This document shows positions 12,442 to 48,015 of a stretch of DNA of 64,000 nucleotides, one piece after another. Positions within the stretch are counted from its first letter, which is position 1; each line of letters starts with the position of its first letter. The notes beneath the pieces are model-generated. The model saw only the letters and a program-made list of their open reading frames with translations. It had not been told where the DNA came from and ran no database searches. The stretch comes from a virus. Lineage: Duplodnaviria > Caudoviricetes. A program made the translations under genes and the position numbers. The DNA lies in IMG/VR virus record IMGVR_UViG_3300022719_000071, positions 1-64,000 of that record; one strand, given 5' to 3'.

Positions 12442-13626
12442 TTACAAGCCCACTGAAGCATTCTCCAATAGCTTTTCACGGCTTGCCTTGCAACCACTAC
12501 GCTCCCACAGGATACGTAGCGTACGCATGGTTTCGCCGACCTTTGGACCCGGTTTCATGCCCAGGTCGAGTAGATCCTGTCCACGCACCGGGAATACCGG
12601 AGCTTCCCACATCTTCAGTGCTGCCACCAAATCGAAGTCTCCGAAGAACCGGGCGAATTCCTCGACGTGCTCACGCACGACGTGCTCCTTGACAATCTGA
12701 CGCTGGCACCAATTTAGGTCAAGGTTCACGAAGTCCTCACCATGCTCCTTGATCATCTGGGTCAAAGCAAGAAGCATGGTGGACTCCACCTTCGACAGCT
12801 TCCAGTTGGTGACCACATCCTGAGCATGCTTGATGTTTCCGTCCAGCAGACCAGCCAGAATCGTTACCGGCTTGGCACCCATGGAGTTAGCGATCCTGGA
12901 AAGTTCCTCGCCATCTCCCGTGATCATCAACGGAAGACCAACGGCGAACAGTACACCAGTCTGTTTCATGTCTTCCATCAGGAAGAGAAACGTTGGCGGC
13001 GGGACAACCAGGATTTTCTGCATCTCCATCCAGATACGCTCGCCAGAGATGCCCCTGAGACCTTCCACGTTCCGTTTGATGGCTTCCATGGTGAACGGAT
13101 CACCATCGACATGCAGGCGACCACAGAACCGAAAGTACCGCAGGATACGCAGGTAGTCTTCCTTGATGCGCTCGTCGGCATCACCCACGAACCGGACATG
13201 ATTGTCATCCAGATCGCTCTGACCGTTAAAGAAGTCATGCACGTTGCCATCCATGTCCAAGAACATGGCATTGATGGTCAAGTCACGTCGCTCCGCATCC
13301 TTCTGCCAGTCGTCAGTGAACACGACCTTGGTATGACGACCATCGGTCTCGGTATCGATGCGCAGGGTAGTGATCTCGAACGGCTCACCGTCCAGCACAG
13401 CGGTTACGGTGCCATGTTGAAGACCAGTCTCCACGACCGTGACACCAGCAGCACGCAAGATGTCCATGACATCAACCGGTAGCAAGGTAGTCGCAAGGTC
13501 GAAGTCCTTGGGGGTCTCTCCCAGCAGGAGGTCACGCACAGCGCCGCCAGCGACCCGGACATTGTTCTTACCCAGAATATCGGCCAGCGTGTGGACTTGA
13601 CTTGGAATGTGTTGCTTGAGGTTCAT
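12442..13626 (-). CDS. cca: CCA-adding enzyme (class II tRNA nucleotidyltransferase)
   Basis: GGAVRDLLLG..KDFDLAT (DxD), EITTLR, ERRDLTINAM, EDYLRILRYFRF, ISGERIWME. Confidence 0.95.
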   Translation of the reverse strand: MNLKQHIPSQVHTLADILGKNNVRVAGGAVRDLLLGETPKDFDLATTLLPVDVMDILRAAGVTVVETGLQHGTVTAVLDGEPFEITTLRIDTETDGRHTKVVFTDDWQKDAERRDLTINAMFLDMDGNVHDFFNGQSDLDDNHVRFVGDADERIKEDYLRILRYFRFCGRLHVDGDPFTMEAIKRNVEGLRGISGERIWMEMQKILVVPPPTFLFLMEDMKQTGVLFAVGLPLMITGDGEELSRIANSMGAKPVTILAGLLDGNIKHAQDVVTNWKLSKVESTMLLALTQMIKEHGEDFVNLDLNWCQRQIVKEHVVREHVEEFARFFGDFDLVAALKMWEAPVFPVRGQDLLDLGMKPGPKVGETMRTLRILWERSGCKASREKLLENASVGL

Positions 13627-22699: not shown

Positions 22700-22777
22700 T
22701 GGTGCCCCTGGAGGGATTCGAACCCCCGACGCAGGAATTTAGAGTTCCCCGCTCTGACCAGACTGAGCTACAGGAGC
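22700..22777 (-). tRNA. Amber suppressor tRNA (anticodon CTA)
   Basis: GCTCCTG/CAGGGGC-ACCA, GCTC/GAGC D stem, GGGAA-CTCTAAA-TTCCT anticodon arm, GGGGG-TTCGAAT-CCCTC. Confidence 0.9.
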
Positions 22778-32160: not shown

Positions 32161-32234
32161 TGGAGCGGGATGCGGGACTCGAACCCGCCTCTTCAGCTTG
32201 GAAGGCTGAGGCACAACCTCTATACCAATCCCGC
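32161..32234 (-). tRNA. tRNA-Gly(TCC)
   Basis: TCAGC-CTTCCAA-GCTGA; ends TCCA. Confidence 0.95.
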
Positions 32235-34397: not shown

Positions 34398-34762
34398 CTT
34401 TACGATATCTATAGCCGGGATTCTGTCAAGAGCTATCATTCATCTTGGGGTATGCTTTTCAGCACCCCTCTTCGCCCCCTACCCGCCCCTCGTCGTGCCG
34501 AGTCATCAGAGCTGTCTGGAGTTGCACCGACCAGAGTTTGCTTCCGCAACATGTCGCCATGCTACGTGTGGTCTCTTACACCACCGTTCCACCTATTGCC
34601 TGTGCTCAACCTACCCGAAGGGTGAGCCATCGGCTGTCTGTCTCTATGGCACTTGTCCTCAGCATTACGCCGGGTGGGATTTCCCCACTGGTCTGCACTA
34701 TGGTGTCCCGAACTTCCTCTCTCCCAATAAAATGGGCCGAGCGATAGCTTGAATACCTGCAC
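34398..34762 (-). ncRNA. rnpB: Bacterial type-A RNase P RNA
   Basis: CR-I GAGGAAGTTCGGG (34707-34719), AGTGCCATAGAGA, GGAACGGTGGTGTAAGAG, GCAAACTC...GTGCAA, CR-V GACAGAATCCCGGCTATA (34410-34427); P2 GCTATC/GATAGC; upstream TTGCCT-17-TATATT promoter. Confidence 0.92.
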
Positions 34763-43489: not shown

Positions 43490-43569
43490 TGGAGCCCCAG
43501 ACAGGATTCGAACCCGCATGTGTCCAATTACCCTTTCATCGGGGTAGAAACCCGAGGGGATACAGGGGC
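43490..43569 (-). tRNA. Non-canonical tRNA-like RNA, Arg(TCT) loop, rearranged cloverleaf
   Basis: GCCCCTG/CTGGGGC-TCCA, T arm GCGGG-TTCGAAT-CCTGT, hairpin TCGGG-TTTCTAC-CCCGA enclosed by TATCC/GGGTA. Confidence 0.75.
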
Positions 43570-46552: not shown

Positions 46553-46882
46553 TCAAGAATTTTCTTTCAGAAAAGCAGCGAACTTTGCGTAAGCTGCATC
46601 CAGACTCTCTTGGCTGCCATCTACTTCCTCAGCGAATGGGCTCGACCAGAAGTCATGGTTGACGGGCTTCTCCGTGAAGCACTTCCGCTGCTTCTCGACC
46701 ATGCCCTCGTACTTCGGCTGGACGATGGTCACGTTGGGACCGTTGGAGTGCATGATGTGGTTTCGAACATAGCGTTCGGTGTAAACCTCACCGGGCTTCA
46801 CGCCGAGATGATTGGTGACCGAGAGCACCTTGTAGTTGCCTTTGCTATCGGGTCCAGCCAGTTTGGTTGTCTTTGTTGCCAT
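46553..46882 (-). CDS. Hypothetical protein
   Basis: ATG after GGAGG, directly downstream of the large ncRNA. Confidence 0.6.
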   Translation of the reverse strand: MATKTTKLAGPDSKGNYKVLSVTNHLGVKPGEVYTERYVRNHIMHSNGPNVTIVQPKYEGMVEKQRKCFTEKPVNHDFWSSPFAEEVDGSQESLDAAYAKFAAFLKENS

Positions 46883-46911
46883 TAGGTCTTACCTCCGAAT
46901 TTGGCATTGAT

Positions 46912-47543
46912 TGGAGCAGAGTTGAGGGATCGAGCCTCCAGCGGCCACCTGTTCCCAGGTGCGGCACCCTGCAATTCAAGTCGTCGGGCTGCCCGGACTC
47001 ACACCGGCTGTCAGGTTGGCCGCTCTTGGCCCGACTTGTCTCAAACCGCTGTCTTTCCAGCCTGTCACCGACACTGTATGGCTAGTCGGACTCCATTACA
47101 TTCGATGTCTCTTCCCAAGGCTCGCTAACACCCGGTTATGATTTCCCGGTCATCCCATGGGCGAATCCAGAAACAAAAGACCGTGTTCAAAGGGCAGTTT
47201 TTTCGTCAGGCGACTTGCCGAGGTCGCCCGGAAACGATGTACGTCTCCGATTGTAAGTCGGTGGCAGAGGTTCGACTACGTTGGCGTACAGTTATTCGCC
47301 ATTTTCCCCGTGCTGTATCACGGTACCGTCTCAGTCGAAGATGCCACCGAATTCAAAAATTCGGAGAGCCTTTTATTCGTCAGGCGACGTGCTCAGGTCG
47401 CCGGGTAGGTCCGTAGAGCCACCCAAATGTCGAGGGGGTCTTTGAATGGCGACGTTACCCCAGGTCGCCGGGTGCGTGTATTATTCGAACGCAACCCTAT
47501 TAATCCCTGTGAATCCGTGGTTCTTTGTATAGTATTCTCTGCT
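46912..47543 (-). ncRNA. Large (~630 nt) structured RNA with tRNA-like termini
   Basis: Promoter TTGACA-17-TATAGT (47581-47553); 5' AGCAGAG pairs with 3' CTCTGCT-CCA; T arm GAGG-CTCGATC-CCTC; many helices; no credible ORF. Confidence 0.8.
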
Positions 47544-47587
47544 ATGGTGTGTACTATACTCTCCTCTATCCCGTTTGTCAAGTGTTT

Positions 47588-47815
47588 TCAGGCGGTGATC
47601 TGGTCATTCGGGAAGAGCACTTTGTAGTAGCGTCGCTTCGGCTCCTTGTTGCCCTCGATCTCGTTGCCCTCGTCGTCGTAGCGGACCAGTTTGCCGTCGT
47701 TCGTGTAGTCCAGAAAGTCCTTGCAGGCGAGCGGCTCGTAACGGCACTGCATGAAGTTCTCGCACGTGTCGCACGGCGACTCCTCCTCCAGAATTGCGTA
47801 AGCGTCCTTGTACAT
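47588..47815 (-). CDS. Small Cys-rich (Zn-binding) hypothetical protein
   Basis: PCDTCENFMQC...C; start trimmed to MYKDAY after GAGGAG. Confidence 0.55.
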   Translation of the reverse strand: MYKDAYAILEEESPCDTCENFMQCRYEPLACKDFLDYTNDGKLVRYDDEGNEIEGNKEPKRRYYKVLFPNDQITA

Positions 47816-47926: not shown

Positions 47927-48015
47927 TGGTGGGTGTTCAAGGAATCGAACCTCCCGTCTACCACCCCACGGTTTTTTGACGCTGGTTTTACAGACCAGAG
48001 TGGGGAAAAACACCC
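47927..48015 (-). tRNA. Non-canonical tRNA-like RNA, Tyr(GTA) loop, rearranged cloverleaf
   Basis: GGGTGTT/AACACCC-ACCA, hairpin CTGGT-CTGTAAA-ACCAG enclosed by CCCCAC/GTGGGG, T loop GTTCGATTCC. Confidence 0.8.

What the first reader, a model, noticed from the sequence alone, without database searches (positions are those of the whole stretch)
46912..47543. ~630-nt ornate RNA closed by a tRNA-like acceptor stem, T-arm and CCA
Seen on the minus strand: a near-consensus promoter (TTGACA-17-TATAGT) starts transcription just before AGCAGAG, which pairs with CTCTGCT followed by CCA about 630 nt later; T arm GAGG-CTCGATC-CCTC. Inside: three copies of a GGCGAC-N8-10-GTCGCC hairpin (47209-47228, 47383-47402, 47448-47469; two followed by TGACGAAWAAAA), long-range helices GGTGGCA/TGCCACC and TTCGACT/AGTCGAA, CACCTG-GGAA-CAGGTG, and GCTG-GAAAGA-CAGC. 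There is no credible ORF. Inference: a stable large RNA matured by RNase P/CCA enzyme like a tRNA; it may be a GOLLD/ROOL-type phage RNA or a new class. The repeated hairpins could be protein-binding or multimerisation sites.
Basis: partly seen in the sequence, partly recalled or inferred. Interest (0 to 1): 0.82.

Follow-up and report, generated by a model that had tools for sequence, protein, structure and literature searches.

The report
Modular jumbo-phage RNA with tRNA-like tail
The 630 gene-free bases encode a real, conserved, folded non-coding RNA of an uncatalogued family found in related giant phages; it ends in a small tRNA-shaped piece that is probably a cutting signal, but the whole RNA is not closed like one big tRNA as first proposed.

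Summary

I found homologous RNAs of 430-1100 nt at the same gene-order slot in eight other metagenomic phage lineages. They sit upstream of a conserved small protein, near DUF6765 and ClpP genes. None matches an Rfam family.

Comparison changes the architecture. The 3' acceptor strand pairs with a strand about 50 nt upstream, not with the transcript's 5' end. This forms a 61-nt tRNA-like minihelix with no D arm and a tetraloop in place of the anticodon loop. Compensatory changes in seven lineages support it. The 630-nt closing helix exists only in this phage.

Covariation also supports three other modules: the hairpin with its GACGAA-A-rich tail, a three-helix junction, and a pre-tail domain. 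Modules come and go between lineages.

A distant relative carries a GOLLD-scoring RNA (119 bits) in the same slot and shares one module.

Best reading: a modular stable RNA transcribed together with the downstream genes and released at the tRNA-like tail by RNase P. The phage encodes its own RNase P RNA and a CCA-adding-type enzyme. Function is unknown.

This scan has noted analogous modular phage RNAs on other DNA, but not this family.

The parts
47553..47581 (-). Sigma-70-type promoter: TTGACA (47581-47576), 17-nt spacer, TATAGT (47558-47553). Predicted start about 47545.
   Evidence: 11/12 matches. A promoter at the equivalent place precedes the RNA in L015, L019, L024 and L026 (read directly).
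46973..47545 (-). Body of the large RNA, about 573 nt, made of several modules.
   Evidence: block-wise homology to L011, L015, L019, L023, L024, L026, L032 and L050. No frame-specific conservation.
47537..47543 (-). The pairing is possible only in this phage.
   Evidence: used in the single-sequence MFE. (no equivalent in any homologue).
47448..47469 (-). Hairpin copy 1 (GGCGAC/GTCGCC), without the GACGAA tail.
47370..47402 (-). Hairpin copy 2 plus the single-stranded tail UGACGAAUAAAAG.
   Evidence: The stem covaries in homologues (AGCGUC/GACGCU in L026, CGCGAC/GUCGCG in L011 and L019) while the tail sequence is kept.
47197..47228 (-). Hairpin copy 3 plus the tail UGACGAAAAAAC.
47260..47348 (-). 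Junction module. Outer helix GGUGGCA/UGCCACC. Helix UUCGACU/AGUCGAA (47339-47333 with 47277-47271). UGAGACGG strand. Hairpin CCGUG/CACGG (47323-47308). Hairpin GGCG/CGCC (47300-47283). AACGUA strand.
   Evidence: 32 nt are 97% identical to L032. On W, L032 and L011, 91.5% of cells are paired and 7 pairs have changes on both sides; slid controls give 39-50%. The outer helix GGUGGCA/UGCCACC was not tested.
47159..47168 (-). Conserved block GGAUUCGCCC.
   Evidence: identical in L011 and L015. Role unknown.
47048..47061 (-). Hairpin GCUG-GAAAGA-CAGC.
   Evidence: Present in the sequence. Not assessed in homologues.
46983..47035 (-). Pre-tail domain. 7-bp helix GUCGGGC/GCCCGAC encloses the conserved strand AAGAGCGGCCAACCUGACAG and the hairpin CCGG-UGUGAGU-CCGG.
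   Evidence: on W, L023, L015 and L050: 97.7% of cells paired, 5 pairs with changes on both sides, slid controls 15-46%.
46912..46972 (-). tRNA-like 3' minihelix. Acceptor GCAGGGU (46972-46966) with ACUCUGC (46922-46916). Middle arm with a GGAA tetraloop. T arm GAGG-CUCGAUC-CCUC (46938-46924). U46915. CCA 46914-46912. Predicted RNase P cut between 46973 and 46972.
   Evidence: the same three-way fold in all 7 lineages. (the covariance model finds L015, L019 and L011, which were not used to build it). (95% paired, 6 pairs with changes on both sides, 0 of 500 shuffles). (only one strong copy in the genome).
46553..46896 (-). Downstream conserved small protein (109 aa, ATG at 46882) with RBS GGAGG at 46896-46892. 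Probably co-transcribed, since no terminator separates it from the RNA.
   Evidence: Its homologues anchor the conserved gene order.

Best explanation
Window 47545-46912 (minus strand) is the gene for a stable, modular, structured non-coding RNA. It belongs to an uncatalogued family carried by a group of uncultured large phages.

A strong sigma-70-type promoter drives it. With no terminator in between, transcription runs on into a conserved small-protein gene.

The last 61 nt fold locally into a tRNA-like minihelix: a 7-bp acceptor stem stacked on a T arm, a tetraloop arm in place of the anticodon arm, no D arm, then U-CCA.

Inferred mechanism: RNase P cuts at G46972, using the host enzyme and/or the phage's own RNase P RNA at 34400-34757. 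This gives the roughly 573-nt body a defined 3' end and detaches it from the mRNA. The small tRNA-like product is then trimmed or repaired at its CCA end. The phage encodes a CCA-adding-family enzyme.

The body is a string of independently folding modules that are gained, lost, multiplied and reordered between lineages. One module is shared with a relative whose RNA at the same slot scores as GOLLD, so the family may be related by descent to GOLLD-type phage RNAs. What the body does is unknown.

Shown here: conservation, gene order, the non-coding nature, and four covarying modules. Inferred: transcription, RNase P and CCA processing, and the GOLLD relationship.
For: Family and gene order: homologues of the downstream protein lead to contigs with the same order of RNA, small protein, DUF6765 and ClpP. 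Each has a 0.43-1.1-kb gene-free stretch that shares sequence blocks with the window RNA.

Non-coding: translated similarity is equal across frames and strands and limited to conserved nucleotide patches. No Rfam family matches.

Local tRNA-like fold: it is predicted independently in 7 lineages. A covariance model built from 4 lineages finds the other 3. 95% of cells are paired, 6 pairs have compensatory changes, 0 of 500 shuffles reach this, and slid controls give 38-54%. The acceptor pairs are W GCAGGGU/ACUCUGC, L023 GCCGGGU/ACCCGGC, L015 GCGGGGU/ACCCCGC, L024 GUGGGGU/ACCUCAC, L026 GAUGGGU/AUCCAUC, L011 GCGGGUGG/CCACCCGC and L019 GUGAGGGU/ACCCUCGC.

Other modules: pre-tail domain, junction module, hairpin with tail.

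Co-transcription: no terminator-like site lies between the tail and the ATG at 46882. The gap of about 30 nt and its RBS region are conserved in all lineages.

Processing toolkit in the same genome: RNase P RNA at 168 bits; a PF01743 ORF at 13192-13557; 17 tRNAs in the window.

GOLLD link: L032:1600-1989 scores 119 bits, E 2e-31, against RF02032, directly upstream of a homologue of the same protein. The same non-coding stretch holds the junction module, 97% identical over 32 nt to the window.

Precedents: tRNA-like t-elements direct RNase P/Z end formation in plant mitochondria (PMC1920247). tRNAs are sometimes embedded in GOLLD linkers (PMC12286853). In phiCbK an annotated tRNA-Gly lies inside the GOLLD interval. 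From memory, bacterial RNase P and CCA-adding enzymes accept acceptor/T-arm minihelices.
Against: No RNA data exist: no transcript, 5' or 3' end, or cleavage site has been observed.

In this phage the single-sequence MFE prefers the far 5'/3' pairing by about 11 kcal/mol over the enforced local tail. A perfect 7-nt Watson-Crick complement lying 2-3 nt from the predicted start is unlikely by chance (my estimate is about 1 in 1000 for that position).

The T loop has C where tRNAs have U54. There is no D loop to dock on it.

Two lineages (L024, L026) lack CCA and extend the stem to 11 bp. Two relatives (L032, L050) have no tRNA-like tail at all, so the tail cannot be essential to whatever the body does.

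The comparative set is small: 7 tails and 3-4 sequences for the other modules. The alignment used for one search was fitted to the model.

The GOLLD link rests on one locus scoring below Rfam's gathering threshold (119 against 150 bits). The shared module is absent from three cultured-phage GOLLD loci.
Confidence: 0.55

Rival explanations
1. The 5' end (AGCAGAG, 47543-47537) pairs with CUCUGCU next to the T arm, so the whole 630-nt RNA is one molecule closed by an acceptor stem and matured at both ends like a tRNA. As I recall it, T4 species 1/RNAC is said to be closed in this way.
For: There are 7 perfect Watson-Crick pairs 2-3 nt from the predicted start. The full-length MFE uses this pairing and is about 11 kcal/mol better than the fold with the local tail enforced.
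Against: No homologue has a complementary strand at its 5' end. The local partner is conserved with compensatory changes in 7 lineages. The MFE that uses the far helix destroys the T arm and the covariation-supported pre-tail domain. This pairing leaves no discriminator base before CCA. The window's 5' purine-rich start aligns with the GAGAGAUGG start of homologues, which faces a CU-rich loop, not the tail.
Confidence: 0.12
2. It is not an independent stable RNA but a long cis-acting 5' leader of the small-protein operon. The modules and the tRNA-like element would regulate or stabilise the downstream mRNA. The element might, for example, protect the 5' end or sense something tRNA-related.
For: No terminator lies between the RNA and the ATG. 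The tail-to-ATG spacing and the RBS region are conserved. The RNA and the protein are linked in 8 lineages. This scan has read other modular phage RNAs with tRNA-like parts as leaders (unchecked notes).
Against: In L015 a 69-aa gene and a separate promoter lie between the RNA and the protein gene. In L032 a terminator-like hairpin separates them. Protein homologues occur without any RNA, next to ClpS. Sizes of 430-1100 nt and module turnover are unusual for a regulatory leader. An encoded UCCA suggests a matured free 3' end.
Confidence: 0.2
3. It is a true but highly diverged GOLLD RNA that forms a GOLLD-type homo-oligomeric cage, with the tRNA-like piece corresponding to the tRNA seen in some GOLLD linkers.
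For: It occupies the same slot as a GOLLD-scoring RNA in L032 and shares a module with it. It sits in a phage tRNA island. tRNAs occur in GOLLD linkers (PMC12286853). The tail's acceptor in L015 and L011 and the U73-CCA resemble the phage's own tRNA-Gly.
Against: The defining conserved 3' domain is not detected in the window RNA, nor in L011 and L015, at E up to 10; nor in L024, L026 and L050 at E up to 1; nor anywhere in the 360-kb genome at E up to 10. The RNA ends at the tRNA-like piece, where a GOLLD 3' domain would begin. The shared module is absent from the phiCbK, DSS3P8 and PG07 GOLLD loci.
Confidence: 0.08
4. It is a tmRNA-like trans-translation RNA. The nearby ClpP gene and ClpS-linked protein homologues hint at a link to tagging for proteolysis.
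For: There is a tRNA-like end with CCA. ClpP lies 2 kb away. Homologues of the downstream protein sit next to ClpS. The block CUGGAUUCGCCC resembles the tmRNA 5' motif CUGGAUUCGAC, as I recall it.
Against: ARAGORN and the Rfam tmRNA models find nothing here. The tRNA-like domain is not formed by the two ends of the RNA. The 3:70 pair is A-U, C-G, G-C or U-A, never G-U. No conserved tag frame exists. The GACGAA-UAA after the hairpin is not followed by a stop in copy 3 or in L024.
Confidence: 0.02
5. The tRNA-like 3' end is an attP-type copy of the 3' half of a host tRNA or tmRNA gene, and the rest is spacer.
For: Phage attachment sites often copy tRNA 3' ends. That is general knowledge, not a test made here.
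Against: The 5' acceptor strand covaries with the 3' strand. This is selection on RNA pairing, not on identity to a host gene. The T-arm/acceptor pattern has no exact match in 185,579 species' genomes. No integrase was seen nearby in the loci examined.
Confidence: 0.02

Closest known systems
GOLLD RNA (Rfam RF02032 in the copy used here; Weinberg et al. 2009; cryo-EM 14-mer cage, Kretsch et al. 2025, PMC12286853)
   Same: A large (>400 nt), promoter-driven, ORF-less, multi-helix RNA of phages, located in a tRNA island. GOLLD has a variable 5' region and sometimes a tRNA covalently embedded. A GOLLD-scoring RNA occupies the same gene-order slot in relative L032 and shares the junction module.
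   Different: The universally conserved GOLLD 3' domain is not detectable. The RNA ends at the tRNA-like piece. Oligomerisation is unknown. The shared module is not found in three cultured-phage GOLLD loci.
Plant mitochondrial t-elements (Forner et al. 2007, PMC1920247) and, from memory, the MALAT1/MEN-beta mascRNA system
   Same: A non-canonical tRNA-like fold embedded in a longer transcript. Its ends define the 3' end of the upstream RNA and the 5' end of the downstream RNA through RNase P/Z. CCA or C additions occur on the released piece.
   Different: Those are organellar or nuclear eukaryotic systems. Here the host is a bacteriophage that carries its own RNase P RNA, and CCA is genome-encoded in 5 of 7 lineages. 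Cleavage has not been shown here.
Phage T4 RNAC/RNAD (species 1 and 2 stable RNAs of the tRNA region; function unknown, PMC9697503)
   Same: Phage-encoded stable RNAs of unknown function, associated with the phage tRNA genes. As I recall, they are matured by the tRNA-processing enzymes.
   Different: They are much smaller (about 120-140 nt). No sequence relationship was tested. The tRNA-like closure of T4 species 1 is from memory only.
tmRNA tRNA-like domain and 3' tRNA-like structures of plant RNA viruses
   Same: An acceptor/T-arm mimic lacking a normal anticodon arm, ending in CCA.
   Different: It is not formed by the 5' and 3' termini. There is no G3:U70, no tag frame and no pseudoknotted acceptor.
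ROOL RNA (per PMC12286853, a cage-forming large RNA of phages and prophages, often near tRNA islands)
   Same: The same kind of genomic context and a similar size (about 580 nt).
   Different: No Rfam family, ROOL included, matches at E up to 10.

Membership tests
GOLLD RNA | Conserved 3' domain matched by the Rfam covariance model (gathering score 150 bits) | tested here: not met
   No match at E up to 10 in window 46800-47700, none in the whole window at gathering score, none in the 360-kb genome. Homologues L011 and L015 are negative at E up to 10, and L024, L026 and L050 at E up to 1. Positive control: L032 scores 119 bits.
GOLLD RNA | Encoded by phages or prophages, often beside tRNA islands; tRNA sometimes embedded | tested here: met
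   360-kb phage record. 17 tRNAs and an RNase P RNA in the window. A tRNA-like piece is covalently attached.
GOLLD RNA | Homo-oligomeric nanocage (14-mer) | not testable with these tools
   Needs cryo-EM or mass photometry of the transcript.
ROOL RNA | Match to the Rfam ROOL covariance model | tested here: not met
   All 4227 Rfam families were scanned at E up to 10. The only hit was a chance miRNA match.
tmRNA | tRNA-like domain formed by pairing of the RNA's own 5' and 3' ends | tested here: not met
   The 5'-end complement exists only in the window RNA. The conserved partner is local.
tmRNA | G3:U70 alanine identity pair | tested here: not met
   The pair at position 3:70 is A-U here and C-G, G-C or U-A in homologues (pair 3/100).
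tmRNA | Conserved tag reading frame; detection by ARAGORN or Rfam tmRNA models | tested here: not met
   (only true tRNAs hit weakly). (no frame-specific conservation).
Canonical tRNA | Cloverleaf with D arm and 7-nt anticodon loop | tested here: not met
   ARAGORN and the Rfam tRNA model do not call it. The fold has no D arm and carries a GGAA tetraloop.
tRNA-like processing element (t-element / mascRNA type) | Acceptor stem stacked on a T arm (about 12 bp) with a 7-nt T loop, embedded in a longer transcript | tested here: met
   A 7-8-bp acceptor plus a 4-5-bp T stem and the loop CUCGAUC, supported by covariation. It lies between a 573-nt body and a downstream gene with no terminator.
tRNA-like processing element (t-element / mascRNA type) | Cleavage by RNase P (5') and RNase Z, RNase E or exonucleases (3') in vivo | not testable with these tools
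   No RNA run holding this sequence was listed. Needs an in vitro RNase P assay and end mapping.

The most novel reading that the evidence does not exclude
The family is a new class of large modular phage RNA, related by descent to GOLLD. Its covalently attached tRNA-like minihelix would be functional rather than a mere cutting signal. It might be aminoacylated: L015 and L011 carry G1:C72, C2:G71, G3:C70 and U73, which I recall as the bacterial glycine identity set, and the window's tail shares U73-CCA with the phage tRNA-Gly. Alternatively the minihelix could dock the RNA onto tRNA-binding machinery such as the ribosome, EF-Tu, the CCA enzyme or the phage's own RNase P. In that case the RNA body would act as a scaffold or cage that presents or sequesters a tRNA mimic during infection.
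Probability: 0.12. Interest if true: 0.85.

Novelty: new variant of a known kind. Interest (0 to 1): 0.6.

Why it matters
Large, intricately folded bacterial and phage RNAs are rare, and their functions (GOLLD, ROOL) are still unknown. This family adds three things.

First, it is a clear case in which a degenerate tRNA, supported by covariation, is fused to the 3' end of a large phage RNA. That gives a concrete and testable maturation mechanism. It is of particular interest in a phage that carries its own RNase P RNA and a CCA-adding-type enzyme.

Second, it shows that such RNAs are built from modules that are swapped, multiplied and lost between close lineages.

Third, it shows a positional and modular bridge to a GOLLD-scoring RNA. 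That bridge may help trace how GOLLD-type RNAs evolve and why tRNAs are found embedded in them.

The report also corrects the proposed architecture, which matters for any structural or biochemical follow-up.

Tried and rejected
- BLAST of the window RNA, L015 RNA and L032 RNA against 50,697 phage records found no match.
- IMG/VR scans with flanking proteins and five RNA motifs found nothing beyond distant ClpP relatives. The 371-kb relative G001 has neither this RNA by BLAST nor a GOLLD.
- Two pattern scans of GTDB genome contigs found nothing.
- Sequencing runs: five DNA holders were listed, and no RNA holder was listed.
- The MAFFT alignment of the full-length RNAs was unusable because of module turnover. 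MAFFT misaligned the 5' strands of the tail, so a covariance model was used instead. RNAalifold on a 3-sequence MAFFT alignment picked a wrong helix; I replaced it with a boundary-anchored alignment.
- A motif search in the GOLLD alignment supplement of PMC12286853 found no occurrences, but the file is gapped, so this says little.
- Downstream small protein: no Pfam family; the AlphaFold2 model has pLDDT 67; no Foldseek PDB match at E up to 0.001. Its function, and any binding to the RNA, remain unknown.
- The tmRNA, attP, protein-coding, intron and riboswitch readings were considered and rejected, or not supported, as listed under the rivals.
- The weak tRNA-Sec hit on the L015 tail (17.9 bits) only reflects the long acceptor/T stack.

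Full report
**What is in the sequence.**
The window is the first 64 kb of a 360-kb IMG/VR phage record. On the minus strand, a near-consensus promoter (TTGACA-17-TATAGT, 47581-47553, 11 of 12) precedes a stretch of about 634 nt with no credible ORF, running to 46912. The three GGCGACCT-loop-GTCGCC hairpins sit at the stated coordinates. None is expected by chance, and there is no further copy in the whole genome. The region folds better than shuffles, z = -4.5. Rfam (4227 families) gives no match at E up to 10, and ARAGORN finds no tRNA or tmRNA here. The same window holds 17 tRNA genes and a bacterial type-A RNase P RNA at 168 bits. The genome also has a PF01743 (CCA-adding/poly(A) polymerase family) ORF at 13192-13557.

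**Finding relatives.**
DNA searches of cultured phages and IMG/VR found nothing. The 109-aa protein encoded directly downstream (46882-46553) has homologues with a highly conserved N-terminus. The contigs that encode them show the same gene order as the window: a gene-free stretch, the small protein, a few small genes, then DUF6765 and ClpP on the opposite strand. The gene-free stretches share sequence blocks with the window RNA. They are L011 (about 1045 nt), L015 (about 1120), L019 (about 775), L024 (about 1050) and L026 (about 430), plus the partial L022, L023 and L050. None matches an Rfam family. Translated comparison gives similarity only over the nucleotide-conserved patches, equally in several frames and on both strands. 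The conservation is therefore at the RNA or DNA level, not the protein level.

**The tRNA-like element is local.**
In every lineage the acceptor 3' strand, next to the T arm, pairs with a strand 50-85 nt upstream. The pairs are:
- W: GCAGGGU/ACUCUGC
- L023: GCCGGGU/ACCCGGC
- L015: GCGGGGU/ACCCCGC
- L024: GUGGGGU/ACCUCAC
- L026: GAUGGGU/AUCCAUC
- L011: GCGGGUGG/CCACCCGC
- L019: GUGAGGGU/ACCCUCGC

RNAfold predicts the same three-way junction for all seven on their own: an acceptor stem, a middle arm with a tetraloop or an extension, and a T arm with a 7-nt loop (6 nt in L026). A covariance model built from four of them finds the other three, and finds only one strong copy in the 360-kb genome. 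On the resulting alignment, 95% of cells pair, six pairs show changes on both sides, no shuffle of 500 reaches this, and slid controls give 38-54%. That alignment was fitted to the model, which favours the structure. However, the acceptor pairs listed above can be read directly from the sequences.

By contrast, the AGCAGAG at the window's 5' end has no counterpart at the 5' end of any homologue. The window's own MFE does use the far pairing and is about 11 kcal/mol better than the fold with the local tail enforced. That MFE, though, destroys the T arm and a covariation-supported domain. I therefore keep the far closure only as a minor rival, possibly an alternative conformer specific to this phage.

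UCCA is encoded in five of the seven lineages. L024 and L026 instead extend the stem to 11 bp and have no CCA. L032 and L050 lack the tail altogether.

**The body is modular.**
Three further modules of the window RNA are supported by comparison.

(i) The hairpin plus the single-stranded tail (U/A)GACGAA-N-AAA. The stem covaries (GGCGAC/GUCGCC, AGCGUC/GACGCU, CGCGAC/GUCGCG) while the tail is conserved. Homologues have one copy; the window has three, the first without the tail.

On W, L032 and L011, 91.5% of cells are paired and seven pairs have changes on both sides. A 32-nt core is 97% identical between the window and L032.

(iii) A pre-tail domain at 47035-46983. A 7-bp helix encloses the conserved strand AAGAGCG-CCA-CC and the hairpin CCGG-UGUGAG-CCGG. 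97.7% of cells are paired, with five pairs changed on both sides in four lineages.

Modules are present, absent, multiplied or reordered between lineages. Most homologues start with a 5' element that the window RNA lacks: GAGAGAUGGA-GAGG facing a CU-rich hairpin loop.

**Relation to GOLLD.**
In L032 a more distant homologue of the same small protein is preceded by 2 kb without genes. Positions 1600-1989 score 119 bits (E 2e-31) against Rfam GOLLD, below the gathering score of 150. The junction module lies 700 nt upstream in the same stretch.

GOLLD has a conserved 3' region and a variable 5' region. It is encoded near tRNA islands in phages and sometimes carries tRNAs in its linker (PMC12286853). 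In phiCbK an annotated tRNA-Gly lies inside the GOLLD interval.

The window RNA and its close relatives give no GOLLD signal, nor does the rest of the genome. The shared module is absent from three cultured-phage GOLLD loci. Membership is therefore not met. A relationship by descent or by module exchange is possible but unproven.

**Mechanism.**
No terminator-like site separates the tail from the downstream start codon about 30 nt away. This short spacer, with its RBS, is conserved across lineages. The simplest reading is a co-transcript in which the tRNA-like minihelix acts as a processing signal. RNase P would cut at G46972, releasing the body with a defined 3' end. The tail would then be trimmed to, or repaired at, its CCA. 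Plant mitochondrial t-elements work this way (PMC1920247), as does MALAT1-mascRNA from memory. From memory, bacterial RNase P and CCA-adding enzymes accept acceptor/T-arm minihelices. The phage's own RNase P RNA and its PF01743 enzyme fit this picture, but nothing shows that they act on this RNA. The function of the body is unknown.

The main rival is a cis-acting leader of the small-protein operon. It is weakened by L015, where a gene and a promoter intervene. It is also weakened by L032, where a terminator-like hairpin intervenes, and by protein homologues that lack the RNA.

The tmRNA, canonical tRNA, attP and coding readings fail their tests.

**Novelty.**
No RNA family library or paper searched holds this family. 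Notes from this scan describe analogous large or modular phage RNAs with tRNA-like parts on other DNA. Those notes are unchecked, and none concerns this sequence. So the kind is recurring while this family and its covarying tRNA-like tail are new. I rate it a new variant of a known kind: large ornate phage RNAs associated with tRNA islands.

Noticed in passing
window 34400-34757 (-): Phage-encoded bacterial type-A RNase P RNA, full-length match at 168 bits, E 1.6e-52. It may process the phage's many tRNAs and the tRNA-like tail described here.
   Followed up: partly
window 13192-13557 (-), within a 431-aa open frame: PF01743 (CCA-adding enzyme / poly(A) polymerase family) match at 113 bits. 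Together with the RNase P RNA, this gives the phage its own tRNA-end maturation toolkit.
   Followed up: partly
window 22700-22777 (-): tRNA with anticodon CUA (amber suppressor; ARAGORN labels it Pyl). Long ORFs around the RNA read normally under code 11.
   Followed up: no
window 47927-48015 (-) and 43490-43569 (-): Two tRNA-like genes that ARAGORN does not call, each with an acceptor stem, a T arm and CCA but no normal D arm. Like the tail described here they lack a D arm, but they keep an anticodon-type loop. One lies just upstream of the RNA's promoter and inside a spurious 149-aa ORF call.
   Followed up: partly
L011:3930-4050, L015:1097-1200, L019:1045-1145, L024:1995-2090, L026:2540-2625: A conserved 5' element of the homologous RNAs, absent from the window RNA. 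A purine-rich start GAGAGAUGGA-GAGG is followed by a covarying hairpin (for example CCCUGGCGGC/GCCGCCAGGG against CCCCGGUCGCA/UGCGACCGGGG). Its loop holds CCUCCUCUCCUCUCUCC. This could be a pseudoknot or an anti-Shine-Dalgarno-like sequence.
   Followed up: no
L032:1600-1989: A GOLLD-like RNA (RF02032, 119 bits, below the gathering score of 150) in an uncultured phage contig. It follows 1.6 kb of further gene-free, repeat-rich sequence (several GGCUAGGAGCCG motifs) and is followed by a terminator-like hairpin.
   Followed up: partly
L024:2265-2345: Inside the homologous RNA there appears to be a circularly permuted tRNA-like piece: a T arm GCGAGGUUCAAGUCCUCGC, then a closed acceptor-like hairpin, then a D-arm-like AGCUCAGCGGU. 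This is reminiscent of YrlA-type Y RNAs.
   Followed up: no
L042 (Caulobacter phage phiCbK JX163858.1:105107-105179): An annotated tRNA-Gly(TCC) lies inside the interval listed as GOLLD (105042-105528) in the alignment of PMC12286853. The window's tail shares U73-CCA-AUC with the phage's own tRNA-Gly (32161-32234).
   Followed up: partly
L029-L031, and the contigs of P0012: Distant homologues of the downstream small protein sit directly upstream of a ClpS gene with no RNA in front of them. In the RNA-bearing loci a ClpP gene is always within about 3 kb. No fold or family could be assigned to the protein.
   Followed up: partly
window 46883-46911, and the equivalent stretch in all homologous loci: The translation-initiation region of the small protein is unusually conserved at the nucleotide level (consensus CUAACUCGGAGAUAAGACCUAUGGC), even in L032 and L050.
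   Followed up: no
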